The notes under the pieces: model-generated
Told to the model about the DNA's origin: nothing
The model's database searches: none
What the model saw: the letters and a program-made list of their open reading frames with translations, nothing else
Position numbers and translations under genes: made by a program
DNA from: an uncultured virus (IMG/VR IMGVR_UViG_3300025860_000008)
Lineage: Duplodnaviria > Heunggongvirae > Uroviricota > Caudoviricetes
Virus record (IMG/VR): IMGVR_UViG_3300025860_000008
Length of the DNA stretch: 20,000 nucleotides
Reading direction: 5' to 3' (one strand)
In this document: in pieces, positions 2,668-19,885 of the stretch
How positions within the stretch are numbered: the first letter of the stretch is position 1
How the letters are laid out: each line of letters begins with the position of its first letter

Positions 2668-2690
2668 AACTTTGATTTTTAATTTATATT

Positions 2691-2722
2691 TAAATATACG
2701 AACAATTTTTTAACAATCCCAA
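2691..2722 (-). promoter_or_regulatory. Short-form promoter TTGG-N16-TTCGTATATTTA, probably also driving the tRNA cluster
   Basis: Minus strand TTGGGATTGTTAAAAAATTGTTCGTATATTTA. Confidence 0.7.
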
Positions 2723-2910
2723 TCTTCTGCTGCAATCTGCAAACAAAGGAGAGGAGATGATTCAGGATTAGATTTCATTTCTTCTAATGCTGTATAAGTT
2801 ACTTCAAATTGTAAACCATGTTTTATTACTCTTAACCATATTTCATTAAAACTAATCATTTCTTCTTGACTCATCTTTTCCAAAAAATCTTTTTTAAATT
2901 GTGGTAACAT
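2710..2910 (-). CDS. Hypothetical protein, 66 aa
   Basis: ORF track; own promoter at 2929-2960. Confidence 0.75.
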   Translation of the reverse strand: MLPQFKKDFLEKMSQEEMISFNEIWLRVIKHGLQFEVTYTALEEMKSNPESSPLLCLQIAAEDWDC

Positions 2911-2928
2911 ATTTATTTTTATTATACG

Positions 2929-2960
2929 TGAATATACGAATTGATTTTCAATTTTCCAAA
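2929..2960 (-). promoter_or_regulatory. Short-form promoter
   Basis: Minus strand TTTGGAAAATTGAAAATCAATTCGTATATTCA. Confidence 0.7.
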
Positions 2961-2964
2961 TTTA

Positions 2965-3903: not shown

Positions 3904-3927
3904 AACCTTTATTTTTTTATTACGTGG

Positions 3928-3959
3928 TGAATATACGAAAGATATCTTAAAAAACCAAA
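3928..3959 (-). promoter_or_regulatory. Short-form promoter upstream of uvsE
   Basis: Minus strand TTTGGTTTTTTAAGATATCTTTCGTATATTCA. Confidence 0.7.
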
Positions 3960-3964
3960 TTTAT

Positions 3965-5951: not shown

Positions 5952-5980
5952 AACTTTTATTTATTTAAATTAAACTTTTA

Positions 5981-6058
5981 TTGTGTTTTAACCTCATTTA
6001 CCCCGTAAATATACGAAAGCTTCCTCGCTTCTCCAAGCGATTCACCGGAAGCCTTTAA
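5981..6058 (-). repeat. Long promoter repeat copy 1
   Basis: Minus strand TTAAAGGCTTCCGGTGAATCGCTTGGAGAAGCGAGGAAGCTTTCGTATATTTACGGGGTAAATGAGG. Confidence 0.9.
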
Positions 6059-6435: not shown

Positions 6436-6513
6436 TTGGGCTCGCACCCCATTTACCCTGTAAATATACGAACGCTTTCTCGCTTCTCCACGCAAGTCAC
6501 CGGAAGCCTTTAA
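6436..6513 (-). repeat. Long promoter repeat copy 2
   Basis: TTAAAGGCTTCCGGTGACTTGCGTGGAGAAGCGAGAAAGCGTTCGTATATTTACAGGGTAAATGGGGTGCGAGCCCAA. Confidence 0.9.
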
Positions 6514-6590
6514 GAAATTGTTGCTAATGTAAACACTACAATCATAAGTGCTACATAAATCACTGAGGATATGTCTGTTTTATGTTTCAT
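6510..6590 (-). CDS. Putative 26-aa membrane peptide (MKHKTDISSVIYVALMIVVFTLATIS)
   Basis: Hand-translated; single hydrophobic helix; stop coincides with the start of repeat copy 2, as for other genes. Confidence 0.45.
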   Translation of the reverse strand: MKHKTDISSVIYVALMIVVFTLATIS

Positions 6591-6879
6591 GGCGATATAT
6601 ATGGGTTTTAATTAATTACCTATGGTTATTTATATTACCCCATGATGAAGTAGCTATTACGTTATATACATATATCTTCTATCGATGTGAAGAAATCGTC
6701 GTTCGCTACTATTTGCGCCTTGCGGGTTTTTATTTTCTTTATCCTATATGGGCTTACATATAATTTTTTTGAGATGCGTTATTTTGTATGTAGTTGCATA
6801 TAATATATTTGTATATACAATCGATGGGTTAGTTTTATACTCGCTCTAATAAGCCCACTACACCCTTTCTTGCGCATAT

Positions 6880-7107
6880 ACACGCCCGATGGACGGCGGC
6901 ATACCGTGGGTTATTATGCGGTACGTACGCCGCACGCCGCCCGAACTATTATCTATATTATATTACACCCAGTACTACATAAGTAATAAGTAATATATAG
7001 TAAGGTACCCACCACGGTAGGTTATGTCACCGTAGGGGTACTTACAATGGCCGTCGACGCCACCTTATATTTAATAATGACGTACTAGTACTTATGATAC
7101 TTGGTAC
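6880..7107. other. Non-coding, GC-enriched, palindrome/hairpin-rich segment with a GTAC cluster (candidate origin, packaging site or structured RNA)
   Basis: No credible ORF until 7092; GTAC at 6921, 6925, 6972, 7005, 7038, 7082, 7088, 7104; long imperfect hairpin at 7000-7045. Confidence 0.5.
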
Positions 7108-7592
7108 GCACCCTCTACTACGCGCCTATAACCATCATACTGATAATTACCATTGTCAATCACCACGCCATCCTTAATCGCCAATGCGTGTTTATTCACG
7201 GCTAGTATGTAATTGCCTTTATTAAACCGCTGTGCAAATGCTTTAACTGTAAATGCAACCGGCTTGTGCTTATATTTTGGATTAACCATGTCACCACCTT
7301 GTTTAGGCCCGTGACCTAGCACCTTTAACTTTCTAGTAATGCCACTATCAAATAGACTCAATTGGCCCACCTCATCAAACGTCATTTCCTTAACGTTGTC
7401 CAAAGTAGACATAAACTGTTTTGTACCTTCACCTTTCTTACGTTTGAAAGTGTCGGAAACATATTTGTGTGCTTGGGAATAATTCACGTCACAAGCATTC
7501 GCAATGGCTCTCACCACGCAATCATTACTCTCGCCTTTAGCTGTTTGATCAGAACCACTAACTGCATAACCACTTTTAAAATTCTTTAACAT
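7092..7592 (-). CDS. Hypothetical phage protein with a possible papain-like Cys-His-Asp triad
   Basis: NDCVVRAIA...HALAIKDGVVID motifs; ATAAAGGTTATG start. Confidence 0.75.
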   Translation of the reverse strand: MLKNFKSGYAVSGSDQTAKGESNDCVVRAIANACDVNYSQAHKYVSDTFKRKKGEGTKQFMSTLDNVKEMTFDEVGQLSLFDSGITRKLKVLGHGPKQGGDMVNPKYKHKPVAFTVKAFAQRFNKGNYILAVNKHALAIKDGVVIDNGNYQYDGYRRVVEGAYQVS

Positions 7593-7622
7593 AACCTTTA
7601 TTTTTAATTAATAACCTTTATT

Positions 7623-7703
7623 CGATGGACTTATCTCATCATTTACCCCGTAAATATACGAACAAAGACTCGGGTATCCAAGCCTTTTGGCGGGAGTCTT
7701 TAA
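7623..7703 (-). repeat. Long promoter repeat copy 3 (divergent spacer)
   Basis: TTAAAGACTCCCGCCAAAAGGCTTGGATACCCGAGTCTTTGTTCGTATATTTACGGGGTAAATGATG. Confidence 0.85.
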
Positions 7704-7988
7704 TTAAACCCAACCAATTGATTTACCATAAAATGTGGTAAGTGAGCAGGTGAGCAAACCTGGACGTGGGTGATTGAGCTTATCGTCACGACGCTCACCG
7801 TAAATATTCTTACCAGTGAAATTACCATATCGACTGTAGCTCTCCTGGTAGTACACTTTATCACCATCAACATCAACCTTCAAACACAGACATGAGCCCG
7901 TATTACTGTTGTTATCGCTAAATAACTTGCCCTCATACTCCATGATGTCCTTAACATCCCCTTCACTTAATTGTCTTACACTATACAT
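7704..7988 (-). CDS. Hypothetical protein, 94 aa
   Basis: ORF track; bracketed by repeat copies 3 and 4; ATAAAGGTTATG start. Confidence 0.75.
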   Translation of the reverse strand: MYSVRQLSEGDVKDIMEYEGKLFSDNNSNTGSCLCLKVDVDGDKVYYQESYSRYGNFTGKNIYGERRDDKLNHPRPGLLTCSLTTFYGKSIGWV

Positions 7989-8010
7989 AACCTTTATTTT
8001 TTTAATTTAA

Positions 8011-8088
8011 CTTGCGTTCCCGCCTCATTTACCCCGTAAATATACGAAGGCTCCCTCGGGGAACCACATATCTTCGCCGGTGCCTTAA
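8011..8088 (-). repeat. Long promoter repeat copy 4
   Basis: TTTAAGGCACCGGCGAAGATATGTGGTTCCCCGAGGGAGCCTTCGTATATTTACGGGGTAAATGAGGCGGGAACGCAAG. Confidence 0.85.
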
Positions 8089-8232
8089 AGAAATAGTTAT
8101 GAATATTCGCGAACCGCGCGTTTCCGTTATGTTCACAAGTATATACTCGTTACCTAGTGGTAAGGTTGGATGCGCGGGCAAGAGGGGTTAACGGCAGTGC
8201 CACTTTAGTCCATATACCCTTATCAACGTTTG

Positions 8233-8397
8233 TTACATACGCTTAATCTCATCCATCCACGTGTCATATTTAGCCATTTGTTGGTCATACTTACGCTTAG
8301 AACGCGCTCGTGAACGCTCCTCTAACCACGTCCACCCAAATGCAAATAGGAATATTGCAGGAACACCTATTAAAGCAATTATTATCTCATTATCCAT
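8233..8397 (-). CDS. Small membrane protein, 54 aa (MDNEIIIALIGVPAIFLFAFGWTWLEERSRARSKRKYDQQMAKYDTWMDEIKRM), not in ORF track
   Basis: Hand-translated; N-terminal TM helix followed by a basic tail. Confidence 0.65.
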   Translation of the reverse strand: MDNEIIIALIGVPAIFLFAFGWTWLEERSRARSKRKYDQQMAKYDTWMDEIKRM

Positions 8398-8416
8398 ATA
8401 ATGTTGATTTTAATTA

Positions 8417-8647
8417 TTAGTACTCATTTGAATCATCTCCCACGTCGTTATACTCTCCACCGCGACGATTTAATTTATCTCCACCGCTGCTGGAATCCCA
8501 TTCATTCTCATCTCTATCCACCCATTCGTCATTTCTCTGCTTTGGGTTTTGAGCAAACATCTTCAGTCGTTTAATTTCATTTATGTAATCAAAACGCTCT
8601 TGCAGTGTCATTTTACTCATCAATTCTTTATCTAATTCTACTCCCAT
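8417..8647 (-). CDS. Hypothetical protein, 76 aa
   Basis: ORF track; TAATG coupling with the upstream gene. Confidence 0.7.
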   Translation of the reverse strand: MGVELDKELMSKMTLQERFDYINEIKRLKMFAQNPKQRNDEWVDRDENEWDSSSGGDKLNRRGGEYNDVGDDSNEY

Positions 8648-8871
8648 TAAAATATAAGTTTAATTACTAACCCACCTAAAATCATTCCAACAACACAACC
8701 ACCAGCTATTGTAATAAACCAAAAGAATGCTTCCTCATTTTTCTTACGCTTAGGGCTATCATAGTAAGGATGCTCATCATATTTACTTTTTACATCATCA
8801 TATTTTCCATCTTCCAACTCACACCAATTCCACTTTTTACGATTGTATTTTCTACCTGTTTTATTTTCCAT
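8647..8871 (-). CDS. Hypothetical protein with C-terminal TM helix, 74 aa
   Basis: ORF track; hydrophobic C-terminus. Confidence 0.7.
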   Translation of the reverse strand: MENKTGRKYNRKKWNWCELEDGKYDDVKSKYDEHPYYDSPKRKKNEEAFFWFITIAGGCVVGMILGGLVIKLIF

Positions 8872-8882
8872 TTGAAGTTATA

Positions 8883-9092
8883 TTATTGGTCTATATTAAA
8901 ATATTCATCTACATTGTTTGGTTGAAAACCAGCCCCTAAAGCTAATTGCTTACATATTTGGTAAAATTCACCAATTGTTAAATCGCTATGATCTCTTTTT
9001 ATCACAACCTCTTCATCCCAATGTTTAAAACTTAATGTTGATTCTTGATTTACTATCATATTATATAATTTACATTTCACGTTTATCCCCAT
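8883..9092 (-). CDS. Hypothetical protein (start probably at the second Met, MIVNQE)
   Basis: ORF track; the longest start overlaps the ligase 3' end. Confidence 0.6.
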   Translation of the reverse strand: MGINVKCKLYNMIVNQESTLSFKHWDEEVVIKRDHSDLTIGEFYQICKQLALGAGFQPNNVDEYFNIDQ

Positions 9093-10359
9093 GTATTACT
9101 TTTACAGTTGGGAATCTTAAACTAATACCACCTTTATCATTTTTGGTTTCCTCAAAATATTGAACCGTAATTACTTTACCTAAAATTGATCCATCCATAT
9201 ACTCCAAACGCTGCTCTTGGGTAAATCCACTACCTACCTTCACAATATGTCCTTTATGTTCAATCCAAACCTGAGCCAACATCGTCATCGACTCAGACTT
9301 ACCATCTCTAACTACCTCATGTGTATCATTATCCCACCCTAACACTTCATACTCAGCATCATGGAATTTCTTTACCTTAACCAAGTTTTTAGTACGCTTA
9401 CCTTCATAACCACAATTCTTACGTAACATTAAACCTTCCCAATTATCTTTACATTCAATATTTCTCCAATATTCAAAATGATCCTCACCTGTAATTAATG
9501 TTTGATCTGTAAAACGTAAAATATCACATTTACTTTCTATCATTGGCTTATCTAAATTATTTCTAACCCAAGACCTACATTTAAGCAAACGTGTTTTTAA
9601 TGGCTCTGTACCTTTACCACTATCAAATTCATCATTTCTCAACATATCAAATACCATATATGCTGGGTTTTTAATTTGATGATCTTTACGTCTCAATTGC
9701 TTCATTACACCTTGAAAATCTTCATTACCATCTTCATCAACTAAACAAATCTCACCATCAAATGTAGTACTAATAATACCAGTATCTTCAATAGCTTCTT
9801 TAACTTTATTTAATGTGGTAAATTCTTTACCTGTTCTACTAAATAATGAGCAATTACCCTCACTATCAACTCTAGCTATACATCTAACTCCATCTAATTT
9901 TCTAGAAACATACCATTCATCACTCCATTCACATTTACCTTTATACTCTTGAGCCAACACTACGTTAAACTCAGGAATAAGACCTGGTACTGCTTTATTA
10001 ATAACTTTAGCTCCAGCCCTAATACCTAAATCTTTATCAATAATTTTATAAACATTATGTCCATAAGCAGTAGCCATTTCAAACCCATTTACTTGATGAA
10101 TTGCATCATGTCCTGTGTAAACTCTATTAGTTAGGTCATTTAACAAACTAAAAACATCCTTATGTGTGTTATATTTGAATTTCCCTTTATTTTTCTTACA
10201 CGTTTTACTGGTGACATAGTATTGTTTGTAGGGGTTATATGTCGCTTCAAGTACATCATGAATAAACGCAGAACTACGCTTAATAATGTCTATTTTGTCC
10301 GTAGCACTGCTCGTACTTCGCATTTCATTTATAAAATCTTCTAATTCAGTCATAACCAT
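9070..10359 (-). CDS. lig: ATP-dependent DNA ligase
   Basis: Motif I SRKLDGVR; FSRTGK; FDGEI; VFDML; EGLMLRK; YEGKRT...VKVK; OB-fold VGSGFT; SLRFPT. Confidence 0.95.
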   Translation of the reverse strand: MVMTELEDFINEMRSTSSATDKIDIIKRSSAFIHDVLEATYNPYKQYYVTSKTCKKNKGKFKYNTHKDVFSLLNDLTNRVYTGHDAIHQVNGFEMATAYGHNVYKIIDKDLGIRAGAKVINKAVPGLIPEFNVVLAQEYKGKCEWSDEWYVSRKLDGVRCIARVDSEGNCSLFSRTGKEFTTLNKVKEAIEDTGIISTTFDGEICLVDEDGNEDFQGVMKQLRRKDHQIKNPAYMVFDMLRNDEFDSGKGTEPLKTRLLKCRSWVRNNLDKPMIESKCDILRFTDQTLITGEDHFEYWRNIECKDNWEGLMLRKNCGYEGKRTKNLVKVKKFHDAEYEVLGWDNDTHEVVRDGKSESMTMLAQVWIEHKGHIVKVGSGFTQEQRLEYMDGSILGKVITVQYFEETKNDKGGISLRFPTVKVIHGDKREM

Positions 10360-10583
10360 TATCTTTCTAATATTACAAATGAACCAAAATACTTATCAAA
10401 TACTTCAATTAGATTCTCATAATCACCTGAAGTCATTTCATCACTTATCTTACTAAAATCTAATTTGAGTTGGTTGGCAAAGTTTTTAGCAAAGCCTAGT
10501 AATGCAAACGCATTACCATCGGGACCTGTCAAGTCAATTATCATTGGAGTTGACGGTTTTAAATCTTGTTTTTTTCTAATCAT
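10359..10583 (-). CDS. Conserved phage hypothetical protein (IDLTGPDGNAF...SGDYENL)
   Basis: Start re-called at MIRKKQ (ATAAAGGTTATG); the longer ORF-track start lies inside repeat copy 5. Confidence 0.8.
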   Translation of the reverse strand: MIRKKQDLKPSTPMIIDLTGPDGNAFALLGFAKNFANQLKLDFSKISDEMTSGDYENLIEVFDKYFGSFVILER

Positions 10584-10606
10584 AACCTTTATTTTTTTAA
10601 TTATTA

Positions 10607-10683
10607 ATTCGGCTTCGCGCCTCATTTATACGTAAATATACGAACCCTCTCTTGCTTCTCCAAGCAATTCACCGGGAGTTTCA
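10607..10683 (-). repeat. Long promoter repeat copy 5
   Basis: TGAAACTCCCGGTGAATTGCTTGGAGAAGCAAGAGAGGGTTCGTATATTTACGTATAAATGAGGCGCGAAGCCGAA. Confidence 0.9.
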
Positions 10684-10851
10684 AATTTGTCTATCAGGAT
10701 GCCAATTATAATCATCACCACCCTTATGTTTAGGTTTACGTTTATAATCTTTTTTACTCTTATGAATATTACCTCGCATAGCCTGCCAAATTTCTTGTTG
10801 AGTGAGTGTTACTTTCTCTAATTTTTTATTTTTATCCTTTTCAGTACTCAT
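10681..10851 (-). CDS. Small basic protein, 56 aa, with HKSKKDYKRKPKHK motif, not in ORF track
   Basis: Hand-translated MSTEKDKNKKLEKVTLTQQEIWQAMRGNIHKSKKDYKRKPKHKGGDDYNWHPDRQI; overlaps the GT2 stop; its own stop abuts repeat 5. Confidence 0.65.
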   Translation of the reverse strand: MSTEKDKNKKLEKVTLTQQEIWQAMRGNIHKSKKDYKRKPKHKGGDDYNWHPDRQI

Positions 10852-11983
10852 CACTAATTTTTAAAACATCATCTCCATTATAACTAATATATCCATACCA
10901 TCCATTCAATATGTGTCCAAACCCAAAATAATTATGAGGTGCATTATCAATATTACAATCAAATATTTGTTTATTAATGTGAAATCTTACTTTATTAACT
11001 TTCCACTTTTCATAATTTTCATACATTATATCTAATGTTTCTTGATTACTTACATAAATAATAACTTCATCATATTCCTCCTCAACACTACCATTATAAA
11101 TTATAGTATTATCATAATACAACTCATTCAATAGTTGTTTTTCATAAGGCTTTATATCTGTTTTTATAAAATTAACTCTACTATTATGTGATGTTTTATG
11201 AAAATCAGCTTCATAAAAAGCCCAGGCTAACTTATTAATTGGTAAATATTTTAAATCAAAAGTACACTCATCATCATCTTTCCAAATAGTACTATACTTT
11301 TCTTCAATCCTACATCTTTCTTCCTCAATTAATCGCTCTGATTCATTATCATAACCATCAAATTGTCTGTGTGAGAAACTACCTTGACTAGCATAATTGT
11401 ATTTATATAATTCTCTAGGTAAAAACATTACTTTACCCCTAGCTTCAATATGTCTCCAAATATTAAGATCATTTTGAAAATAATCTAATTTACCATCATA
11501 ATCAAAATGTGGTATTACATTTCTCCAAGCTCGGCCATAAGTCATAATAAAATTACTCTGCGCCTCTAAATTAGGAGCAGTCCACTCAAACAACTCAACA
11601 CCATTTTTATTTTTTAAAGCACCACAACATATCCCAATCAATGAAGGATCTTCCATAAAATGTTTAGCGTAAACTTCAAGTATATTAGGGTACATTGTGT
11701 CATCACTATCCATCTGGAAGATAACATTACCACTAGCACCATAATTAGGATTATAAAATAATTCTTTTTTTCTAGACTGAGTGTAATAAACTACCCTATG
11801 GTCATTTTTAGCTATCTCTTTTAAACGCTCTTCAGCATTTTTATCGGGAGAAAAATCATCAGTTACAACCCATTCCCAATATTTGTAAGTTTGAGCTTTT
11901 AAACCTTCATAAATATGGTCTACCCAATCACTTCGTTTATAGAATGATGTATTAACCGTAAAATTAATTCTTTCTCCCTTCAT
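10841..11983 (-). CDS. Glycosyltransferase family 2 protein with an extra C-terminal domain
   Basis: AQTYKYWEWVVTDDFS, ASGNVIFQMDSDD (DxD), QND, LYKY GT-A motifs. Confidence 0.88.
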   Translation of the reverse strand: MKGERINFTVNTSFYKRSDWVDHIYEGLKAQTYKYWEWVVTDDFSPDKNAEERLKEIAKNDHRVVYYTQSRKKELFYNPNYGASGNVIFQMDSDDTMYPNILEVYAKHFMEDPSLIGICCGALKNKNGVELFEWTAPNLEAQSNFIMTYGRAWRNVIPHFDYDGKLDYFQNDLNIWRHIEARGKVMFLPRELYKYNYASQGSFSHRQFDGYDNESERLIEEERCRIEEKYSTIWKDDDECTFDLKYLPINKLAWAFYEADFHKTSHNSRVNFIKTDIKPYEKQLLNELYYDNTIIYNGSVEEEYDEVIIYVSNQETLDIMYENYEKWKVNKVRFHINKQIFDCNIDNAPHNYFGFGHILNGWYGYISYNGDDVLKISDEY

Positions 11984-11985
11984 AT

Positions 11986-12225
11986 TTAAAATGGTAATTC
12001 TTCTTGTTTTTGTTTACTAATAGGTTCAGAATGGTCTTCTAATTTTCTATAATTAAAAGAAGCAAAAGGTTGTTCACCTAATTCTAATATACCAACTCCA
12101 CCACCATATTTACTATCAATTTCTTTCTTCATTTGATGAGCTCGTTTACGAGCCATATAATCATTTTCAGCATAAACATACATATCCATCTTTACAACGT
12201 ATCTTTTTTCTTCTTTACCCATCAT
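11986..12225 (-). CDS. Hypothetical protein, 79 aa (ends EELPF)
   Basis: ORF track; tight packing. Confidence 0.7.
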   Translation of the reverse strand: MMGKEEKRYVVKMDMYVYAENDYMARKRAHQMKKEIDSKYGGGVGILELGEQPFASFNYRKLEDHSEPISKQKQEELPF

Positions 12226-12401
12226 TACTTTTTTTTAAATGTATTATATAAATTATACAAATATAAACCTAAAGCTGCAGGCCAAACTAATATACAAACA
12301 GCTCTTTCTATATTTGAAAATTGATTCTTAGTCCCAAATAGCAACCAGTCCCACAATGAAGTGAGAGCTGATCCTATTACTATGTAAATTAAAATATACA
12401 T
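12225..12401 (-). CDS. Small 2-TM membrane protein, 58 aa (MYILIYIVIGSALTSLWDWLLFG...VWPAALGLYLYNLYNTFKKK), not in ORF track
   Basis: Hand-translated; TAATG overlaps at both ends fill the gap exactly. Confidence 0.75.
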   Translation of the reverse strand: MYILIYIVIGSALTSLWDWLLFGTKNQFSNIERAVCILVWPAALGLYLYNLYNTFKKK

Positions 12402-13201
12402 TATGCTGTCATGTTTATCGGCTCATCAAATAACCAGTTAACTTTATTTTTACTGTTCAAGTTGAAGAACAATTTATTTCCACTACCACCTCGACGGTTT
12501 TTACTGAAATGGAAAAAACGCTGACCATCACCGTCAAATTTTAAATGACCCATTGCTGTTGTCATATGCTTAATCTTATTTGACCCAACAAACGTTCCAC
12601 CTTTAGTAACTTGTTGAATGATCAAAAACGTGCTATTAATTTTATCATCATTATTTGCTTGGTTATGCTCATCAAGCAACTGCAAAATTCGGTTGGTATT
12701 TGACTTACCAGTACCACCAAAATAATCAACATAATTATCTGAAATCTCAGCAAGCGAATCAATTAATACACAATCATAACCCTCTTTAAGTGCAGTTCGA
12801 AGAACAACATCAGGATTAACTTCACTATAATCACCCATAAACAAGATATCTAAATCTCCAAATTTTGGGAATCGCTTAACATAACCAACCATGTCAATAG
12901 CATTCATTTCACCTGAAATGAACAAACATTTTTTACCTTTCTGATTAAGATCAGCAAGAACATCTAACAATACTGTTGTTTTACCAACACCTGGATCACC
13001 AGTAACTACAACATTTGTACCAGGCATTACTCCACCTTCCATACTGAAGAATGGATCAACCTTTGTACCTGTTTTCATTGGCTCAAACAATTTCTTGTTG
13101 AATTCCATATTATCCATTTTAACTGTTTTAACAACAACACTTTGTGTTGGGTTGTTAACAACTTTCTTACTCGGACGACCTCTTTTAACTTTATTTACCA
13201 T
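12401..13201 (-). CDS. RecA-superfamily ATPase, RadA/Sms-like ATPase domain with N-terminal AT-hook-like motif
   Basis: Walker A GDPGVGKTT; LFISGE; Walker B VLIDS; QVTKGG..VGSNKIKHM; KNRRG. Confidence 0.85.
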   Translation of the reverse strand: MVNKVKRGRPSKKVVNNPTQSVVVKTVKMDNMEFNKKLFEPMKTGTKVDPFFSMEGGVMPGTNVVVTGDPGVGKTTVLLDVLADLNQKGKKCLFISGEMNAIDMVGYVKRFPKFGDLDILFMGDYSEVNPDVVLRTALKEGYDCVLIDSLAEISDNYVDYFGGTGKSNTNRILQLLDEHNQANNDDKINSTFLIIQQVTKGGTFVGSNKIKHMTTAMGHLKFDGDGQRFFHFSKNRRGGSGNKLFFNLNSKNKVNWLFDEPINMTA

Positions 13202-13227
13202 AACCTTTATTTAATTAATTTAACATT

Positions 13228-13300
13228 TCTGGGCTCTCACCTCATTTACCCCGTAAATATACGAACGCTTCCTCGCTTCTCCACATATTTTGCGCATTAT
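13228..13300 (-). repeat. Long promoter repeat copy 6
   Basis: ATGCGCAAAATATGTGGAGAAGCGAGGAAGCGTTCGTATATTTACGGGGTAAATGAGGTGAGAGCCCAG. Confidence 0.9.
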
Positions 13301-13302
13301 TT

Positions 13303-13629
13303 TTAACTTAATGTGGAATTCTTTAACATTTGGTTGAGATGAGCTGTGTTTCTAGCAGTTGAACACATTCTAATCACTTCAGCAACTTTATCAGTTGATA
13401 ACCAACCTGCAACTTGATCACCATTACCTAAAACAACATCCTTATTGTTACCTGTAATCATAATCTCAGCAGATGTGGCTTCCCAAAATTCACCCTTCAT
13501 AGATTCATCAAACGAACCATCATTTTTCCTGCTACAGTAGTTACCTACACCCCATTGAACTGATATACCAAACCCGTTTTCAAAGGTCATATTAAACCCT
13601 TTATTAAATGTACTAACAAATTTACTCAT
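13303..13629 (-). CDS. Conserved phage hypothetical protein (GFNMTFENGFGISVQWG.GNYC)
   Basis: ORF track; ATAAAGGTTATG start. Confidence 0.8.
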   Translation of the reverse strand: MSKFVSTFNKGFNMTFENGFGISVQWGVGNYCSRKNDGSFDESMKGEFWEATSAEIMITGNNKDVVLGNGDQVAGWLSTDKVAEVIRMCSTARNTAHLNQMLKNSTLS

Positions 13630-13634
13630 AACCT

Positions 13635-13817
13635 TTATTTTTTAATTATTAATTCTAAATTATTATCTTCAAATTTGATACCAACAACTTCATGTCCATT
13701 ATCAACTTCTACTTTTTTGATGAACTTATTCAAATCAAACGATCTAAACATGATACCACTTAATGCTTCCCCATCGAAACCATCTTTCCAGAATATCTTT
13801 TCTTCAAACTTTTCCAT
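13635..13817 (-). CDS. Hypothetical protein, 60 aa (MEKFEEKIFW...)
   Basis: Start re-called downstream of repeat copy 7. Confidence 0.7.
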   Translation of the reverse strand: MEKFEEKIFWKDGFDGEALSGIMFRSFDLNKFIKKVEVDNGHEVVGIKFEDNNLELIIKK

Positions 13818-13830
13818 TTTTATTTTTATT

Positions 13831-13907
13831 TTGGGCTCGCACCCCATTTACCTTGTAAATATACGAAGGGGATCTGGCTAAGCCAAATCCCCTCGCATGA
13901 GTCTTTA
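13831..13907 (-). repeat. Long promoter repeat copy 7, with spacer replaced by a hairpin
   Basis: TTAAAGACTCATGCGAGGGGATTTGGCTTAGCCAGATCCCCTTCGTATATTTACAAGGTAAATGGGGTGCGAGCCCAA. Confidence 0.85.
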
Positions 13908-13913
13908 ATAAAT

Positions 13914-14249
13914 TTACTGTTTGTCTTTTGTGGGTTTAGTAATTGGTTTAGGAGCTGTAAACGAAGGTGGGGTTACTACAGGTTTTGTAGGTCTTGGCTT
14001 TGGATTTACAGGTCTTATAATTACTGGAGGTGTATTATAATAATTGTAGTTGTAAGGATATCTATTAATCCCATTATCATAATAATAGTTGTTATAAACT
14101 TTTGGTCTTAATGAATTGACATCAATAAGAATTGTATCACCCTGAGGAGTGACACCTAATACTTTAACAAAATTATACTCTGTTGAAGGTTGGTAAGAAG
14201 CACAACTTATTATAGATAAGAGTACTAATACTACTAAAGATTCTTTCAT
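13914..14249 (-). CDS. Putative lipoprotein with Tyr/Asn-rich and Pro-rich C-terminal segments
   Basis: MKESLVVLVLLSIIS-C lipobox-like signal; NNYYY and PKPRPTKP tracts. Confidence 0.75.
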   Translation of the reverse strand: MKESLVVLVLLSIISCASYQPSTEYNFVKVLGVTPQGDTILIDVNSLRPKVYNNYYYDNGINRYPYNYNYYNTPPVIIRPVNPKPRPTKPVVTPPSFTAPKPITKPTKDKQ

Positions 14250-14254
14250 ACATT

Positions 14255-14806
14255 TTATACTAGCGGAGTTCCTAGCATTATTTTTTCATGCTTTGTACCA
14301 GCAATGCTCCTTGTATATGAACCATCATCGTTCATAATAATATCTTTACCAGCCAATGCTTTCTCAATAGTAGCTTGGTCAGTTACCTGAGGTACACCTG
14401 CTTTAAGTAAGATATCTTTTATTTTTCCTGATACTTCAACATAAAAACCTGGTTTTTTTAACCTATCTATTTTATGTGTAATAACAGCTCTTTTAGCTTC
14501 ACGAGAACCATCATGGCCTGTAGCAACGAACTTTTCACCAGCAGCTTTACGTTTAGATACGTTAACTGCATCAATATCTCCATCATCATCTAAATCAATC
14601 ACTTCATACTCAGCACCTCTGCCTGTTTCTTTATCTACGTCACCAACACTTTTAAAATTACTATGACCTCCAATGTAGGCATAAGCAGATTTAATTAACT
14701 CTATAATATCATCAGCTTCATCAGAAGCTTCTGTAGAACTTAATTTATCCCAATCCCCTTCTAGCAGGTATTGATTTTTAAAGTATTTTTGTAGATTAAA
14801 ACTCAT
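14255..14806 (-). CDS. Hypothetical protein, candidate internal head protein
   Basis: N-terminus MSFNLQKYFKNQYLLE resembles those of its neighbours. Confidence 0.75.
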   Translation of the reverse strand: MSFNLQKYFKNQYLLEGDWDKLSSTEASDEADDIIELIKSAYAYIGGHSNFKSVGDVDKETGRGAEYEVIDLDDDGDIDAVNVSKRKAAGEKFVATGHDGSREAKRAVITHKIDRLKKPGFYVEVSGKIKDILLKAGVPQVTDQATIEKALAGKDIIMNDDGSYTRSIAGTKHEKIMLGTPLV

Positions 14807-14807
14807 A

Positions 14808-15122
14808 TTATTCTCCAGTTACTAAATCTTTAGCACTAATAATTGCTTGTTCTAAACCATCATGTACATCATCACTACCTATATGATAAAATTTTTCTTT
14901 AGCATCTTCCATATAAGCAACAAATTCCATTACTTCATCTGCTGAAGGCATATTCCAAACACCTTCTTTAATTTCTTCTTTATCTTGTTTAGCTTCATAA
15001 GCTGCTTTAACACTTTCTAGTGTTGGTAGTGCTTCACCTGTCTTTCTAGTATCATACCCAGGTGAGTTTTCATTTAATAGTGATTTTTCACCAAGAAATT
15101 TTTTCAAGTTAAATTTATCCAT
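14808..15122 (-). CDS. Hypothetical protein, candidate internal head protein
   Basis: N-terminus MDKFNLKKFLGEKSLLNE. Confidence 0.75.
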   Translation of the reverse strand: MDKFNLKKFLGEKSLLNENSPGYDTRKTGEALPTLESVKAAYEAKQDKEEIKEGVWNMPSADEVMEFVAYMEDAKEKFYHIGSDDVHDGLEQAIISAKDLVTGE

Positions 15123-15145
15123 TTTATTTTATTTTATTTTTATTT

Positions 15146-15505
15146 TTATTGACCTCTTCCAAATTCAAAAGCAATACCAAACTCTTGGCCTACTTCTTCT
15201 AATACATCTGATGGGTCTATTCCTGTATCTCTAATCATTTGAATTATTTCACCTATTACTTGGCCAGATCTTTTATCTGTACCCGCAGCACCAAAGCTTA
15301 TTTCAGCTAATCTCAATTGCTTTTCATCATACTCCATTTCTTCTCCATCAGCTTTTTTAACTGAGTAAGCATTAAGATCAGACCCAAACATCCTACGTGT
15401 TTTAGTAATCTCCATTTCTGGACCACCATTATTCATGGTTACTTTATCACCAACTTTAAATTTAGCTTCGTTAAGATATTCTCTAAAATTATTTAATTCC
15501 TTCAT
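15146..15505 (-). CDS. Hypothetical protein (MKELNNFREYLNEA-KFKVGDKV, SH3/YodC-like), candidate internal head protein
   Basis: Start re-called at MKELNN, just after the esterase stop; the upstream 36 aa of the ORF-track call overlap the esterase. Confidence 0.7.
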   Translation of the reverse strand: MKELNNFREYLNEAKFKVGDKVTMNNGGPEMEITKTRRMFGSDLNAYSVKKADGEEMEYDEKQLRLAEISFGAAGTDKRSGQVIGEIIQMIRDTGIDPSDVLEEVGQEFGIAFEFGRGQ

Positions 15506-15506
15506 C

Positions 15507-15998
15507 TTATTTAATTGTTTTATTATACATATCGCAAAACACATCAAGTGGCACTCTATGTCCCATTGTTTTAACGCGATGAATTTGAGATTGCATATAC
15601 TTACCGGCAACATGGTCTTTAAGGTAATCTAACGTTTTACTACCATCAATAACGGTGTCTTTTTCACCCAACACCAAATGAAAGTTATCAGGAACATGCT
15701 CTTTTACAAATTTAGGGAAATTAGGCTCAATTCTTCTAGAATGCAAAGCAGGATTAAAAGCAACAACTGGAATTTTATAAAGCGCTCCTAAAACGAATGC
15801 AGAATAACCACCCATTGATGAACCTATAATTACATCAGGTTTAAACTCCTCAACTGTGCTAATAAGGAATGGAAATATATCACTCCTTGTATAATCTAAC
15901 TCAGGTGCATGAACAAATGCTTTAGTTGCTAAGAAATCAACCTTATCACCACCCTGTGGACTTTCTAAACCATGTAAATATAATATTTTTTGTTTCAT
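15507..15998 (-). CDS. Alpha/beta hydrolase, YqiA/YcfP (UPF0227)-like esterase
   Basis: ILYLHG; nucleophile elbow GSSMGG; NPAL; catalytic D (EKDTVID) and H (MGHR); start re-called at MKQKIL. Confidence 0.88.
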   Translation of the reverse strand: MKQKILYLHGLESPQGGDKVDFLATKAFVHAPELDYTRSDIFPFLISTVEEFKPDVIIGSSMGGYSAFVLGALYKIPVVAFNPALHSRRIEPNFPKFVKEHVPDNFHLVLGEKDTVIDGSKTLDYLKDHVAGKYMQSQIHRVKTMGHRVPLDVFCDMYNKTIK

Positions 15999-16005
15999 AA
16001 CTGTA

Positions 16006-16082
16006 TTGGGCGTGCGCCTCATTTATACCATAAATATACGAATAATTTCTTGCTTCTCCACATATTTTTGCAGAAGTCTTAA
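16006..16082 (-). repeat. Long promoter repeat copy 8
   Basis: TTAAGACTTCTGCAAAAATATGTGGAGAAGCAAGAAATTATTCGTATATTTATGGTATAAATGAGGCGCACGCCCAA. Confidence 0.9.
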
Positions 16083-17215
16083 ATATAAAGCGGCATCCGT
16101 GCTTGGTTATGTAACCATGCTATTTCAGCCATATCATCATCAAATTCAAACCCCCAAACTCTAAACATTGACATTTGTCCTCTCCATTTCTGAGTATTGG
16201 TAAACCTCATCCCAATAGTAAAATTATCCCCAAGTGTAGTCATTGCTGTAGAACAAGTTCCACTGGCAACTGGACCAGCAGTGTACCCATTCCCACTACC
16301 ATAATATAATTTACTAGTATTGGTTGAAGAATTCCCAGTCATAACACCATGATGTCTAATACTACTATCACTTCCATTATATTGAAGTCTTGCCGACCAA
16401 TTCCACCTAAACCCTTGATAGCCCATATAATTCCAAGTTCCACCATCATTCCTACCATCACACAAATATTGATCATCAGTAACATTATTAGTGTTTCCTA
16501 TATACTCATAAGTAAGTTGCCCGGTAATTGCTGGATCTGAAGTATTTGTAATTCCAGCAGCATTATTAAAATTAAATGTAGCATCCCAAGGCCATGAAGT
16601 GTAAGCAGCAGTTTCAGAGGGTGCAGTACCACTAATTGTATTTGCTGATTGATTATGACTATCTACATAAGACGTTAATGTGGTCCCATCCCAACACTCA
16701 TCCATGTGAAACTCATAATTATGTACAGGTCGTAAATCAATACTTTCAGTACCTGGTCCTTTTATTGGAGGCCAACCACCTTCAGTCCAAAACCAACCAC
16801 CTACTCTATAAAGCTGTAGTACAATAGTATTCCAATCTGTAGTTGAATCTGGTGTGTTACCTAATGTAGTAAAATATGGAAGCGAGAGTAACCAATCTAC
16901 ATCTAAATGATCACCTTCCCAAAAATTTATTATATTTTCAGGATTTTCTCTTGATAAAATATCATGACAACAAAACACCATTTGTGGATCTCCATCTGGG
17001 CTTGTATTTGCTCCAGCACCTAACCCACCTTGATGACTAACCCAAGTCCAATTATTTGGATTAGCAACATCATTAATATCAACACGAGGTGTTTGTGTAT
17101 ACAAACGCAAGCCTGAAAATTGATTTCCATTATGAACCGACATAGGTCTAAAGCCTTCTGCTACTTGAAAAACACTTGCTACACCATGTGACTTCCAATC
17201 ATTCCATTTTCTCAT
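16079..17215 (-). CDS. LamG/concanavalin-A-like domain protein, probable virion/tail adhesin
   Basis: C-terminal QYLCDGR...RHHGVMT...KLYYG...FTIGMRF...WRGQMSMFRVW pattern; T/G/N/W-rich. Confidence 0.7.
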   Translation of the reverse strand: MRKWNDWKSHGVASVFQVAEGFRPMSVHNGNQFSGLRLYTQTPRVDINDVANPNNWTWVSHQGGLGAGANTSPDGDPQMVFCCHDILSRENPENIINFWEGDHLDVDWLLSLPYFTTLGNTPDSTTDWNTIVLQLYRVGGWFWTEGGWPPIKGPGTESIDLRPVHNYEFHMDECWDGTTLTSYVDSHNQSANTISGTAPSETAAYTSWPWDATFNFNNAAGITNTSDPAITGQLTYEYIGNTNNVTDDQYLCDGRNDGGTWNYMGYQGFRWNWSARLQYNGSDSSIRHHGVMTGNSSTNTSKLYYGSGNGYTAGPVASGTCSTAMTTLGDNFTIGMRFTNTQKWRGQMSMFRVWGFEFDDDMAEIAWLHNQARMPLYI

Positions 17216-17245
17216 TTTTGATTATAAATATTGAGCCTACAACTC

Positions 17246-17452
17246 TTATTCCCAGTCTTCCTCAAGGCGAGGACGAGCTTTCGTAGGCCTCTTCTTTTTA
17301 TGCGCTTCTTTTGGCGCAACCAAAACCTCACCACAATTATCGCATGTGTATAAGTCGGTTATCATGTTTATACTAAAATCATTTCCCCCACACTTCAAAC
17401 AGGGGTGGAATGGATCTTCTTCAATCCAATCGCCATAATTAACTTTTGACAT
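17246..17452 (-). CDS. Zn-ribbon protein, 68 aa
   Basis: CLKC...CDNC cysteine pairs; basic tail. Confidence 0.75.
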   Translation of the reverse strand: MSKVNYGDWIEEDPFHPCLKCGGNDFSINMITDLYTCDNCGEVLVAPKEAHKKKRPTKARPRLEEDWE

Positions 17453-17666
17453 TTTCTTCTAGAATTTCTGCTTCTTCAATGGTTTCACACATTAGGAAAT
17501 GGGTTTGAGATCTAAGAACGTGATCGCACCCAAGGTAATCTCTATAGTCTTGTAAGAGTTGCATGTTTAATTTATTTTGACCTTTAACTTCAAATACGTG
17601 GGTTGGTACCTCACGCTTTACAATGTAAGCATTGTCATTTACATATTTTAAGTAATCGGTTATCAT
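17439..17666 (-). CDS. Hypothetical protein, 75 aa
   Basis: ORF track; short overlap with the downstream gene. Confidence 0.7.
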   Translation of the reverse strand: MITDYLKYVNDNAYIVKREVPTHVFEVKGQNKLNMQLLQDYRDYLGCDHVLRSQTHFLMCETIEEAEILEENVKS

Positions 17667-17709
17667 CGTATATACGTATTAACTGGATATTATTTGTATA
17701 AAAAGCTTT

Positions 17710-17841
17710 TTAGCTTCTTTTTCCACGTTTTGTTTTATATTCATTTATTGTTGCTTTGCCTTCTTTTTTATTTTTTTCTGCTACAATTTGTCTATAGATT
17801 GGACTATTCCATTCACAACCTCTATATTCTCGCTTTTTCAT
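17710..17841 (-). CDS. Putative small basic protein, 43 aa (MKKREYRGCEWNSPIYRQIVAEKNKKEGKATINEYKTKRGKRS)
   Basis: Hand-translated; fills the gap; overlaps the upstream gene end by 20 nt. Confidence 0.5.
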   Translation of the reverse strand: MKKREYRGCEWNSPIYRQIVAEKNKKEGKATINEYKTKRGKRS

Positions 17842-18004
17842 ATGCTTCTTCTAATGTTATTCCTTCACTTTCGGGCCTAAACCCAACCATAAATCCTTTT
17901 TCATCAACATCTAATTCATCTAGTTTACCATCAAACCAACAATCATCATGGTAGTGAGCCCACCATCCATTTTCTAGTAAATATTTTCTTTTATTTACTT
18001 CCAT
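17822..18004 (-). CDS. Hypothetical protein (MEVNKRKYLLENGWW...)
   Basis: Start re-called at the second Met to minimise overlap. Confidence 0.65.
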   Translation of the reverse strand: MEVNKRKYLLENGWWAHYHDDCWFDGKLDELDVDEKGFMVGFRPESEGITLEEAYEKARI

Positions 18005-18345
18005 AATACTTGGATACAAATTAAAATTAATGATAGACATAAACTAACAATTGTTTTAGGATTTAAAGTTTCACCGAAAAAATAATTAACACCAACAGCA
18101 TAAATTATCATCCCAACCCCAAATCCTACAAACCTAGCAGGCCATAATAAACCTTCAAATCCACTAACAGTATATTTAGTTCCCCAAATATAGAAAAATG
18201 ATAGAATTATACCCGCTGCTGCTACTAACAGTTCATTCTTTCTAAACCAATCTGTTTTAAAAAATTGTCCGTTTAATTGGAAGAATGTTAGCACATGAGC
18301 TATACTAAACATGAATATTCCAATTAGCATATCCTTATACAACAT
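17995..18345 (-). CDS. 4-TM membrane protein, SMR/DMT-like
   Basis: Four hydrophobic helices in 116 aa; FFGETL before the last helix, as in DMT-superfamily proteins. Confidence 0.7.
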   Translation of the reverse strand: MLYKDMLIGIFMFSIAHVLTFFQLNGQFFKTDWFRKNELLVAAAGIILSFFYIWGTKYTVSGFEGLLWPARFVGFGVGMIIYAVGVNYFFGETLNPKTIVSLCLSLILICIQVLWK

Positions 18346-18349
18346 AACT

Positions 18350-18484
18350 TTAAATTTTATTAAATTGAATTCTATGAATTAATTCTTCTAAATGTTGCAT
18401 TGCTTCGCTATTGTTACGATCTTCTACTAATTGAAGTATTAAATTTAATTTTCGATATAGATTTTCCTTTTCTAGTTTATCCAT
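18350..18484 (-). CDS. Small hypothetical protein, 44 aa (MDKLEKENLYRKLNLILQLVEDRNN...FNKI)
   Basis: Hand-translated; fills the gap. Confidence 0.65.
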   Translation of the reverse strand: MDKLEKENLYRKLNLILQLVEDRNNSEAMQHLEELIHRIQFNKI

Positions 18485-18489
18485 TTTGT

Positions 18490-18708
18490 TTATTTTAGTG
18501 TTACATTAAAGTAATCTGTTAAAAAGTCACTTGGGTAAGTATAAACCTCACCAGTATAATAACTTTCTTCCAGTTGTCTAGTACCATGTTTAATGCCTGC
18601 TTTAGCAGCGGCATAAGCTACTTTTGTACCTAATTCGCCACCAGCAGCTCTACCTAAATGGTCGAATAGTGAAATATATTCACCTGTGTATTGTTTTGTA
18701 TTTGCCAT
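18490..18708 (-). CDS. Hypothetical protein, 72 aa
   Basis: ORF track; tight packing. Confidence 0.75.
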   Translation of the reverse strand: MANTKQYTGEYISLFDHLGRAAGGELGTKVAYAAAKAGIKHGTRQLEESYYTGEVYTYPSDFLTDYFNVTLK

Positions 18709-18709
18709 A

Positions 18710-19087
18710 TTATGAGTTATAAATTTCTTTTTCTAATTCATCTAAATCCACCTCGTAGATATCATCTTCTTCTACCTCCATTTGGTTTAAACGATCTGTT
18801 TCTAAATCATCTCTCCAAGCAATTTCTGGAAGTAAACCTGCGTTTTCAATTAATGACCAAATTCTTTCTTTCCATAAATTCATATGAACTCCTTCAATGG
18901 TACTTTCATAACCAAATTGCCTAGTAAATTCACCTAAAATATCAACAAACTCACTTGCTAATTCATTTAACTCACCATCAACTGGGAAATTATCACCAAA
19001 CTTATCAGAACCATTAGTTCCAGTTTCATACATTTCTTTAACTACTAACCACTTGGGGGTTAAAAAACTTTTTTCAATTTTTGCCAT
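18710..19087 (-). CDS. Acidic hypothetical protein, 125 aa
   Basis: ORF track; ATAAAAGTTATG start. Confidence 0.75.
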   Translation of the reverse strand: MAKIEKSFLTPKWLVVKEMYETGTNGSDKFGDNFPVDGELNELASEFVDILGEFTRQFGYESTIEGVHMNLWKERIWSLIENAGLLPEIAWRDDLETDRLNQMEVEEDDIYEVDLDELEKEIYNS

Positions 19088-19106
19088 AACTTTTATTTTT
19101 AATTAA

Positions 19107-19337
19107 TTAATCTTCTATATCTACTGTAATAAACTCTTTAGTAGTGTCTATTTTATCTAAATGGTATTTAACATTATCCATAATCTCCCTCATATCATTT
19201 ACCATACTCTCTAAATCTGAATTTCTTACACAATTTTTGATTTCATAAATGTAATCATTCACCGTGCTTAATTCATAGGTAACATCTTTTAATTCTGGGA
19301 CGCAATCCCAACCATCATGTATTGTTTTAATTTTCAT
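19107..19337 (-). CDS. Hypothetical protein, 76 aa
   Basis: ORF track. Confidence 0.7.
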   Translation of the reverse strand: MKIKTIHDGWDCVPELKDVTYELSTVNDYIYEIKNCVRNSDLESMVNDMREIMDNVKYHLDKIDTTKEFITVDIED

Positions 19338-19340
19338 ACC

Positions 19341-19526
19341 TTATGATTTTTTAATACACATTAAACATATCCCACCAAGCATAAAGGACATAACACAAAA
19401 TGCCATTTCATTATCAATACCCTCAAAAGGGATATAATTCTGAACGGCACCATGCATTGTTCCTATACTAAGCATAAATGCACTTACTGCTCCTACTAAA
19501 TACTTAAAATCAATTTTCTTCAACAT
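19341..19526 (-). CDS. Small 2-TM membrane protein (MLKKIDFKYLVG...)
   Basis: Start re-called at ATAAAAGTTATG; two hydrophobic segments. Confidence 0.7.
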   Translation of the reverse strand: MLKKIDFKYLVGAVSAFMLSIGTMHGAVQNYIPFEGIDNEMAFCVMSFMLGGICLMCIKKS

Positions 19527-19547
19527 AACTTTTATTTTTATTAATAA

Positions 19548-19617
19548 TTGGGTTTGCACCCGTTTTACCCTGTAAATATACGAAGGCTTCCTTGCTTCTC
19601 CAAATTTTTATGCGCGA
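19548..19617 (-). repeat. Long promoter repeat copy 9
   Basis: CGCGCATAAAAATTTGGAGAAGCAAGGAAGCCTTCGTATATTTACAGGGTAAAACGGGTGCAAACCCAA. Confidence 0.9.
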
Positions 19618-19790
19618 GAATAAGGACCATTATATTGATACATAATTCCTAATGTAGGGTGAGTGATGTTATTACCATGTTCTAATTGGTCTGATAGCAC
19701 CTTAGACATTGCTAATGCTTTTAATGCAGTAACAAATACAGTACCATTAATAACTTTTGAATTTGACGGATTTAAATTTACTTTTTTCAT
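19608..19790 (-). CDS. Hypothetical protein, 60 aa
   Basis: ORF track; bracketed by repeats 9 and 10; ATAAAGGTTATATG start. Confidence 0.7.
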   Translation of the reverse strand: MKKVNLNPSNSKVINGTVFVTALKALAMSKVLSDQLEHGNNITHPTLGIMYQYNGPYSRA

Positions 19791-19817
19791 ATAACCTTTA
19801 TTTTTATTTGTGTTCTA

Positions 19818-19885
19818 TTGGCTTCATGCCTCATTTACCCCGTAAATATACGAAGGCTTCCTTGCTTCTCCAAATTTTACGCGAA
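19818..19885 (-). repeat. Long promoter repeat copy 10
   Basis: TTCGCGTAAAATTTGGAGAAGCAAGGAAGCCTTCGTATATTTACGGGGTAAATGAGGCATGAAGCCAA. Confidence 0.9.

What the first reader, a model, noticed from the sequence alone, without database searches (positions are those of the whole stretch)
6436..19832. Conserved GNRA-type RNA hairpin at the 5' end of the repeat-driven transcripts (boxB/nut-like?)
Seen (minus strand, just after GTAAAT): GGGU-GCGA-GCCC (copies 2, 7), GGGU-GCAA-ACCC (9), GGU-GAGA-GCC (6), GCG-GGAA-CGC (4), GGC-GCGAA-GCC (5), GGC-GCAC-GCC (8), GGC-AUGAA-GCC (10). It is weak or different in copies 1 and 3. Sequence varies but pairing (including U-G/U-A exchange) and four distinct GNRA loops are kept, which indicates selection on RNA structure. 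Known: lambdoid boxB is a short stem with a GNRA-like loop bound by Arg-rich N antiterminators, and 5' hairpins also protect mRNA. Inference: a phage-specific mRNA tag for antitermination, protection from a host-shutoff nuclease, or translation enhancement in an SD-less host.
Basis: partly seen in the sequence, partly recalled or inferred. Interest (0 to 1): 0.7.

Follow-up and report, generated by a model that had tools for sequence, protein, structure and literature searches.

The report
Hairpin cap on phage early mRNAs
A marine phage of Flavobacteria-like hosts puts a tiny, interchangeable RNA hairpin at the very start of the messages made from its repeated early promoters; it most likely protects those messages from decay and is not a lambda-type antitermination signal.

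Summary
The hairpins are real. They lie about +6 to +23 of ten repeated Bacteroidetes-type promoters (TTG-N20-TATATTTA) in the early region of a 164-kb T4-like phage whose nearest cultured relative infects Flavobacterium. Nine of ten copies fold, each only weakly. Across relatives, long leaders fold better than shuffles (41 non-redundant, p=1e-7) and short ones do not. Stems favour G-U over A-C (47 to 8), which points to sense-strand RNA. In a second promoter class 62 of 65 long leaders form a stem starting at the predicted start site. About 19 unpaired bases always remain before the AUG. GNRA is not the rule: 5 of 10 window copies, 8 of 68 distinct hairpin tops. No boxA, no Arg-rich N-like protein. 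One gene carries many hairpins or none in different relatives, and cultured phage immuto has the promoter array without hairpins. Best reading: an optional 5' stem-loop stabiliser inside a PeSL-like promoter cassette (about 0.5). Weak point: the window's copies leave 5-9 unpaired 5' bases. Start sites and function are inferred, not measured. New variant of a known kind; moderate interest.

The parts
19820..19830 (-). Copy 10 leader hairpin GGC-AUGAA-GCC (+9..+19); promoter -33 to -7 at 19873-19843, predicted +1 19838, AUG 19790
19550..19561 (-). Copy 9 hairpin GGGU-GCAA-ACCC (+8..+19); promoter 19603-19573, +1 19568, AUG 19526
16007..16021 (-). Copy 8 hairpin UG-A-GGC-GCAC-GCC-CA (+6..+20); promoter 16061-16031, +1 16026, AUG 15998
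13833..13844 (-). Copy 7 hairpin GGGU-GCGA-GCCC (+8..+19); promoter 13886-13856, +1 13851
13230..13244 (-). Copy 6 hairpin UG-A-GGU-GAGA-GCC-CA (+6..+20); promoter 13284-13254, +1 13249, AUG 13201 (RadA-like ATPase)
10606..10626 (-). Copy 5 hairpin GGC-GCGAA-GCC with weak lower stem (+3..+23); promoter 10663-10633, +1 10628
8014..8023 (-). Copy 4 hairpin GCG-GGAA-CGC (+10..+19); promoter 8067-8037, +1 8032, AUG 7988
7624..7640 (-). Copy 3 hairpin GAUG-A-GA-UAAG-UC-CAUC (+7..+23); promoter 7681-7651, +1 7646, AUG 7592
6438..6449 (-). Copy 2 hairpin GGGU-GCGA-GCCC (+8..+19); promoter 6491-6461, +1 6456, AUG 6410
5951..6036 (-). Copy 1: same promoter (6036-6006, +1 6001) and long leader before DUF932, hairpin decayed
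13866..13894 (-). Upstream stem-loop laid over the -33 box and spacer of copy 7 (13 pairs); similar stems in copies 1, 3, 4. PeSL-like part of the cassette
2686..3960 (-). Three promoters of the same type (cores at 3937, 2938, 2700) with short plain leaders and no hairpin: internal controls
10681..10854 (-). 57-aa Lys-rich ORF, DUF7230-like; not an Arg-rich motif; homolog in immuto
17710..17841 (-). 43-aa basic ORF, conserved in some relatives, no family, not Arg-rich

Best explanation
Each repeat is a cassette: host sigma-A promoter (TTG-N20-TATATTTA), often overlapped by an upstream stem-loop, then a leader. Transcription starts at or next to the G of GUAAAU (inferred from host promoter geometry). 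Leaders come in two forms: a plain A/U-rich ribosome-loading stretch of about 20 bases, or the same stretch with a 12-25-base stem-loop added in front. The stem-loop folds in the mRNA (shown by sequence statistics), stays clear of the SD-less initiation region (shown), and most likely slows 5'-end-dependent decay by host pyrophosphohydrolase plus RNase G/Y, raising output of the small early genes (inferred). The window's copies mostly keep only the GC-rich top of a stem that in relatives reaches back to +1. Leaders are exchanged between cassettes, as in PeSL shuffling (inferred).
For: All 257 promoters found in 113 protein-anchored loci lie on the coding strand with fixed spacing. The host -7 box spans -12..-5 (PMC9723704) with 4-5 nt to the start (PMC6847099). 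Leaders of 36-60 nt fold better than dinucleotide shuffles (41 non-redundant, p=1.2e-7), leaders up to 27 nt do not (71, p=0.98), and the region around the AUG is less structured than shuffles. Native 5'/3' halves fold better than swapped halves (61 leaders, 0 of 20000 permutations). Internal G-U 47 against A-C 8 in 95 distinct helices (p=5e-7). In an independent scan for promoters starting GUU, 62 of 65 leaders of 30 nt or more and 3 of 17 shorter ones fold, pairing rising from 0.10 at -4 to 0.62 at -1 and 0.81 at +1 (68 leaders); two inner pairs covary (0 of 500 shuffles). Median 19 nt from stem end to AUG (170 leaders) equals the short-leader length, 20 (83). Loops and stems vary freely. 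5'-terminal stems block RppH and RNase E/J (PMC5360333). Two Flavobacteriaceae MAGs carry RNase E/G and RNase Y.
Against: No start site, half-life or mutant data; the RNA runs are contigs only. The window's copies leave 5-9 unpaired 5' bases (copy 5: 2), whereas two or more unpaired bases abolish protection in the systems read. Stems of 3-4 pairs are weak. Fixed-register covariation in the window's class is not significant on a plain alignment (36 and 451 of 500 shuffles); RNAalifold found no consensus for the GUU class; sense and antisense z did not differ in the pooled set (p=0.25). Relatedness inflates all shuffle tests. The host is inferred, and RppH activity in Flavobacteriaceae was not tested.
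Confidence: 0.5

Rival explanations
1. The GC-closed, A-rich top is a binding tag for a host or phage protein that spares or favours phage early mRNAs (protection during host shut-off, or ribosome/bS1 standby in an SD-less host).
For: The top is kept when the lower stem is lost; 33 of 68 distinct tops end in RA closed by Y-G, and an unpaired A often precedes the top stem. Hairpins mark the early cluster: 9 of 10 promoters there, 4 of 19 elsewhere, 0 of 26 late-type leaders.
Against: Loop length 3-12 and sequence vary widely; shared ancestry explains the AA-G bias. No RNA-binding or mRNase family among 146 genome proteins and 35 window proteins scanned with Pfam, although most have no family. 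The same gene lacks the hairpin in many relatives.
Confidence: 0.17
2. The hairpin acts during initiation: folding of +1..+20 in the RNA exit channel helps polymerase escape very strong promoters or sets a promoter-proximal pause.
For: Fixed position: 67 of 67 model hits lie directly behind a -7 core; stems end near +19. Mechanism recalled from general knowledge, not from a call.
Against: Immuto's similar promoters work with plain leaders; half of the clade's promoters lack it (157 of 305).
Confidence: 0.13
3. Lambda-type nut/boxB or put-like antitermination signal.
For: GNRNA loops in 31 and GNRA in 43 of 148 hairpin-bearing promoters; terminator-like stems at about half of the cassettes (150 of 302); a promoter-proximal position would suit a put-like element (recalled).
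Against: No boxA-like word in 305 leaders, no Arg-rich motif in the two candidate ORFs. Four of nine hairpin promoters are followed by the next promoter within 270-602 bases, leaving little to read through. Stems are 3-4 pairs; half the loops are not GNRA-like. Orthologous genes carry unrelated hairpins or none.
Confidence: 0.07
4. The hairpin masks the stray AUG in GUAAAUG so that ribosomes do not start there.
For: 76 of 89 leaders with UAAAUG fold against 21 of 80 without the G; AUG is under-represented near starts in Bacteroidetes (PMC6847099 abstract).
Against: The G is also part of the lower stem and is inherited with the block; GUU-class leaders have no such AUG yet fold.
Confidence: 0.06
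5. Neutral or DNA-level: an inherited palindrome (operator, cruciform) copied with the promoter.
For: Reverse complements also fold better than shuffles (p=8e-5); copies are paralogous.
Against: G-U over A-C 47 to 8; spacing and stem sequence vary; unrelated sequences fold at the same place and stop at the start site.
Confidence: 0.07

Closest known systems
PeSL (promoter-early stem-loop) cassettes of T4-like phages (Comeau et al. 2014, PMC4122927; parts 1-2 of 3 read)
   Same: Repeated host-type promoter cassettes between small ORFs in a variable region of a T4-like phage; stem-loop at the upstream side; genes exchanged between cassettes.
   Different: Bacteroidetes -33/-7 promoter, no Shine-Dalgarno; the upstream stem overlaps the -33 box; a second hairpin lies downstream of the start site, which the parts read do not describe.
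5'-terminal stem-loop stabilisers (E. coli ompA and papA, M. tuberculosis DrrS; passages of PMC5360333 and PMC3997798)
   Same: Stem at or near +1, sequence-independent, upstream of the initiation region.
   Different: Much smaller; repeated on many phage genes; the window's class leaves 5-9 unpaired 5' bases.
Lambda nut site, boxB with N protein (passages of PMC12027372, PMC3177189)
   Same: Short hairpin near an early promoter; some loops fit GNRNA.
   Different: No boxA, no conserved loop or U-A closing pair, no Arg-rich protein found, ten or more copies before one- or few-gene units.
Early promoter array of Flavobacterium phage vB_FspM_immuto_2-6A (NC_055915)
   Same: Same promoter core and AAAGGTTATG-type start; one promoter per small early ORF; major capsid protein 60% identical.
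   Different: Plain A/U-rich leaders; 0 of 12 sense-strand promoters with a hairpin.

Membership tests
Lambdoid nut/boxB | GNRNA pentaloop folding as GNRA, conserved within a phage | tested here: not met
   1 of 10 window copies; 6 of 68 distinct tops GNRNA, 8 GNRA; definition from PMC12027372
Lambdoid nut/boxB | boxA next to boxB | tested here: not met
   0 of 305 leaders hold the boxA-like words tried; the words were recalled, and Bacteroidetes boxA may differ
Lambdoid nut/boxB | Phage Arg-rich N protein | tested here: not met
   Candidate ORFs have 1 and 2 Arg per 11 residues; four coding-strand frames of 30-160 aa reach 4, none tied to the hairpin or tested further; no N family hit
Lambdoid nut/boxB | Processive terminator read-through | not testable with these tools
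   needs reporters
PeSL cassette | Repeated host-type early promoter between small ORFs in a variable region of a T4-like phage | tested here: met
PeSL cassette | Stem-loop just upstream of the promoter | tested here: inconclusive
   170 of 302 upstream segments fold at -8 kcal/mol or better, but the stem overlaps the -33 box and U-tracts are poor
PeSL cassette | Gene or leader exchange between copies | tested here: met
   One hairpin word precedes 10 unrelated protein families; one family has many leaders. Indirect; mini-circles not shown
5'-terminal stem-loop stabiliser | Stem begins within about 1-2 bases of the 5' end | tested here: inconclusive
   Met for the GUU class and 40 of 148 others (first pair at +1 or +2); not met for 8 of the 9 folding window copies; start sites are predicted
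5'-terminal stem-loop stabiliser | Longer half-life that depends on pairing, not sequence | not testable with these tools
   sequence freedom seen; half-life not measurable
Any Rfam family | Covariance-model match | tested here: not met
   Only tRNAs above threshold in the window and in 8 related loci

The most novel reading that the evidence does not exclude
The GC-closed, AA-ending top is a self tag on early mRNAs of a widespread marine Flavobacteria-phage clade, read by an unidentified factor that exempts them from host shut-off or loads ribosomes in a host that ignores Shine-Dalgarno sequences.
Probability: 0.15. Interest if true: 0.75.

Novelty: new variant of a known kind. Interest (0 to 1): 0.42.

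Why it matters
mRNA decay and 5'-leader control in Bacteroidetes and their phages are little studied. This clade offers hundreds of natural variants of one strong promoter with and without a minimal 5' hairpin, plus a cultured relative without it, so the question whether a 5' stem-loop stabilises mRNA in Flavobacteria is directly testable and could give compact expression parts. It also extends PeSL-like cassettes to an SD-less host. It does not show a new antitermination system.

Tried and rejected
Rfam: no match at the cassettes. Metatranscriptome runs X1-X4 (one study) cover all 30 bins of the window but are contigs, may hold DNA, and show no start sites; joints between cassette copies probably come from relatives: not used as evidence. 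Pooled folding test without splitting by leader length was weak; the split at 36 nt was chosen after seeing the bimodal lengths. First G-U/A-C count, terminal positions included, gave 40 to 25 (p=0.03); the internal-only count on the larger set was run afterwards. Fixed-register pair counts on ungapped alignment A1 were not significant for covariation; RNAalifold on A2 gave no structure; the model-fitted alignment A3 gave 3 of 500 but leans to its own structure. R-scape and CMfinder were not available. Generic sigma-70 and terminator scans were at chance level. The cassette has no full-length match in cultured phages. A scan of prokaryote genomes found 3 stretches, in MAGs labelled Lacinutrix, Winogradskyella and Yeosuana; the one read in full resembles this phage, so it is only a weak host hint. 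RNase J was below cut-off in 2 of 2 incomplete MAGs, which does not show absence. Paper searches found no description of this element; two returned nothing. No complex or structure prediction was run, as no partner protein was credible.
Full report
Context. The window is positions 109564-129563 of a single 163,571-base contig with T4-like portal, major capsid, sheath and tube genes. The best cultured match of the capsid protein is Flavobacterium phage immuto at 60% identity. Nearly all called ORFs lie on one strand. The window holds small unknown ORFs, a ligase, a RadA-like ATPase, DUF932 and UvdE. The host is inferred to be a marine Flavobacteriaceae member from immuto, the promoter type and the run labels; it is not shown.

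The repeat. The ten copies read TTGG, then TTCG-TATATTTA, on the coding strand. In 113 loci anchored on two window proteins all 257 distinct promoters lie on the coding strand with 20 bases between TTG and TA. This is the Bacteroidetes sigma-A geometry: TAnnTTTG at -12..-5 (PMC9723704, passages), TTTG near -33 (PMC7366714, passages), 4-5 bases from box to start (PMC6847099, passages). The predicted +1 is the G or U of GUAAAU, so the hairpins at +6..+23 are transcribed. This is inference.

Observation. Nine of ten copies fold at 37 C, at -3.0 to -6.2 kcal/mol, z -0.56 to -2.42. Copy 3 folds best by z; copy 1 does not fold. Five copies have GNRA loops. Genome-wide, 9 of 10 promoters between 109.7 and 123.6 kb fold against 4 of 19 elsewhere (p=0.001; boundary set after inspection; only one of the four is a true copy), and 0 of 26 late-type leaders.

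Selection on structure. Leader lengths are bimodal, about 20-25 and 44-48. Among non-redundant promoters, leaders of 36-60 bases fold better than dinucleotide shuffles (41, p=1.2e-7; reverse complement p=8e-5), those of 28-35 (16, p=0.51) and up to 27 (71, p=0.98) do not. Pooled without this split the effect is weak (156, p=0.035). Of 305 distinct promoters 148 have a hairpin: 111 of 141 long (promoters without a called ORF were counted as long), 15 of 47 middle, 22 of 117 short. Native halves fold better than swapped halves (61 leaders, 0 of 20000). Inside 95 distinct helices found without strand bias, G-U outnumbers A-C 47 to 8 (expected share 0.53, p=5e-7); an earlier count with terminal positions gave 40 to 25. 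Column-wise covariation in the window's class is poor on a plain alignment because loop length shifts the register and modest on a model-fitted one. Relatedness inflates these tests.

A second class locates the 5' end. A scan for the same promoter followed by GUU gave 96 distinct leaders: 62 of 65 with 30 or more bases fold, 3 of 17 shorter ones, 14 had no leader assigned. Stems are 5-10 pairs of unrelated sequence, loops mostly six bases. Mean pairing is 0.10 at -4, 0.16 at -3, 0.27 at -2, 0.62 at -1 and 0.8 at +1..+4 (68 leaders; the T-rich box also shows 0.3-0.5 by pairing with A-rich leader, an artefact of folding untranscribed bases). Two inner pairs covary (22 cells changed on both sides, 0 of 500 shuffles), although RNAalifold found no consensus on that alignment. 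Some GUAAAU-class relatives also pair back to +1 or +2 (40 of 148). The window's copies mostly retain only the top. In 170 leaders the stem ends a median 19 bases before the AUG, matching the 20-base short leaders and the low-structure zone -20..+20 reported for F. johnsoniae.

Against boxB. Lambda N needs a GNRNA loop and U-A closing pair (PMC12027372, passages) and works with boxA (PMC3177189, passages). Here 8 of 68 distinct tops are GNRA and 6 GNRNA; closing pairs are mostly C-G or U-G. No boxA-like word (recalled) occurs in 305 leaders; the two small ORFs are Lys-rich, not Arg-rich; the 57-aa one resembles DUF7230 and is present in immuto, whose promoter array has plain leaders (0 of 12). 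Four of nine hairpin promoters meet the next promoter within 602 bases. DUF932 has no hairpin in 30 of 47 promoters and ten kinds in the rest; one hairpin word precedes 10 unrelated families. All 67 model hits in 51 loci sit right behind a promoter.

Cassette. About half of the promoters carry a second stem over the -33 box and spacer (170 of 302 at -8 kcal/mol or better), independent of the leader hairpin. With repeated promoters and swapped leaders this works like the PeSL cassettes of T4-like phages (PMC4122927, parts 1-2 of 3). Termination there is not shown.

Mechanism. Most likely a host-read 5' stabiliser (0.5): 5'-terminal stems resist RppH and then RNase E or J, and two or more unpaired bases remove the effect (PMC5360333, PMC3997798, passages). 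Two Flavobacteriaceae MAGs encode RNase E/G and RNase Y. The fit is good for the GUU class and imperfect for the window's copies, which leave 5-9 unpaired bases; that gap keeps a protein tag (0.17) and a promoter-escape role (0.13) open. Antitermination (0.07), masking of the +5 AUG (0.06) and neutral palindrome (0.07) are weaker.

Novelty. No Rfam match; no description found in searches of a library that lacks most subscription papers; supplements were not read. Earlier scan notes held nothing on this genome and analogous leaders in other genomes. Verdict: real, selected RNA element; new variant of known kinds; interest 0.42.

Noticed in passing
window 6795-6960 (minus strand), inside the ORF-free gap 6480-7090: Sequence-conserved non-coding element in the 13 contigs aligned (72% mean column identity, invariant blocks, short palindromes), almost no covariation (1 of 15 pairs), no Rfam hit: looks like a DNA site such as an origin or packaging/terminus signal.
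   Followed up: partly
window 8060-8240: Second non-coding stretch, conserved at about 76-92% over 60-110 bases in several relatives.
   Followed up: no
G000 genome-wide; window 4730 and 17222: Late-type motif ATATTTATA before structural genes (28 occurrences listed), sharing TATTTA with the early -7 box; a 270-aa ORF (L138:1353-2165) has a weak sigma-70 hit and may be the gp55-like factor.
   Followed up: partly
window 13866-13894 and other copies: Strong stem-loops with the -33 box embedded in one arm (up to -28 kcal/mol in relatives); terminator, processing site or DNA palindrome unresolved.
   Followed up: partly
window 1141-2124: 327-aa ORF with a type IX secretion C-terminal (CHU_C) domain, a Bacteroidetes hallmark, in a phage.
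   Followed up: no
L136:10482-13093: Family B DNA polymerase split into two ORFs, whereas immuto is annotated with family A polymerases.
   Followed up: no
L260, L347, L348: GUU-class promoters with 5'-terminal stems ahead of non-coding or tRNA-like sequence rather than an ORF.
   Followed up: no
window 6052, 6096, 19994: The window differs from the laid genome at three single bases.
   Followed up: no
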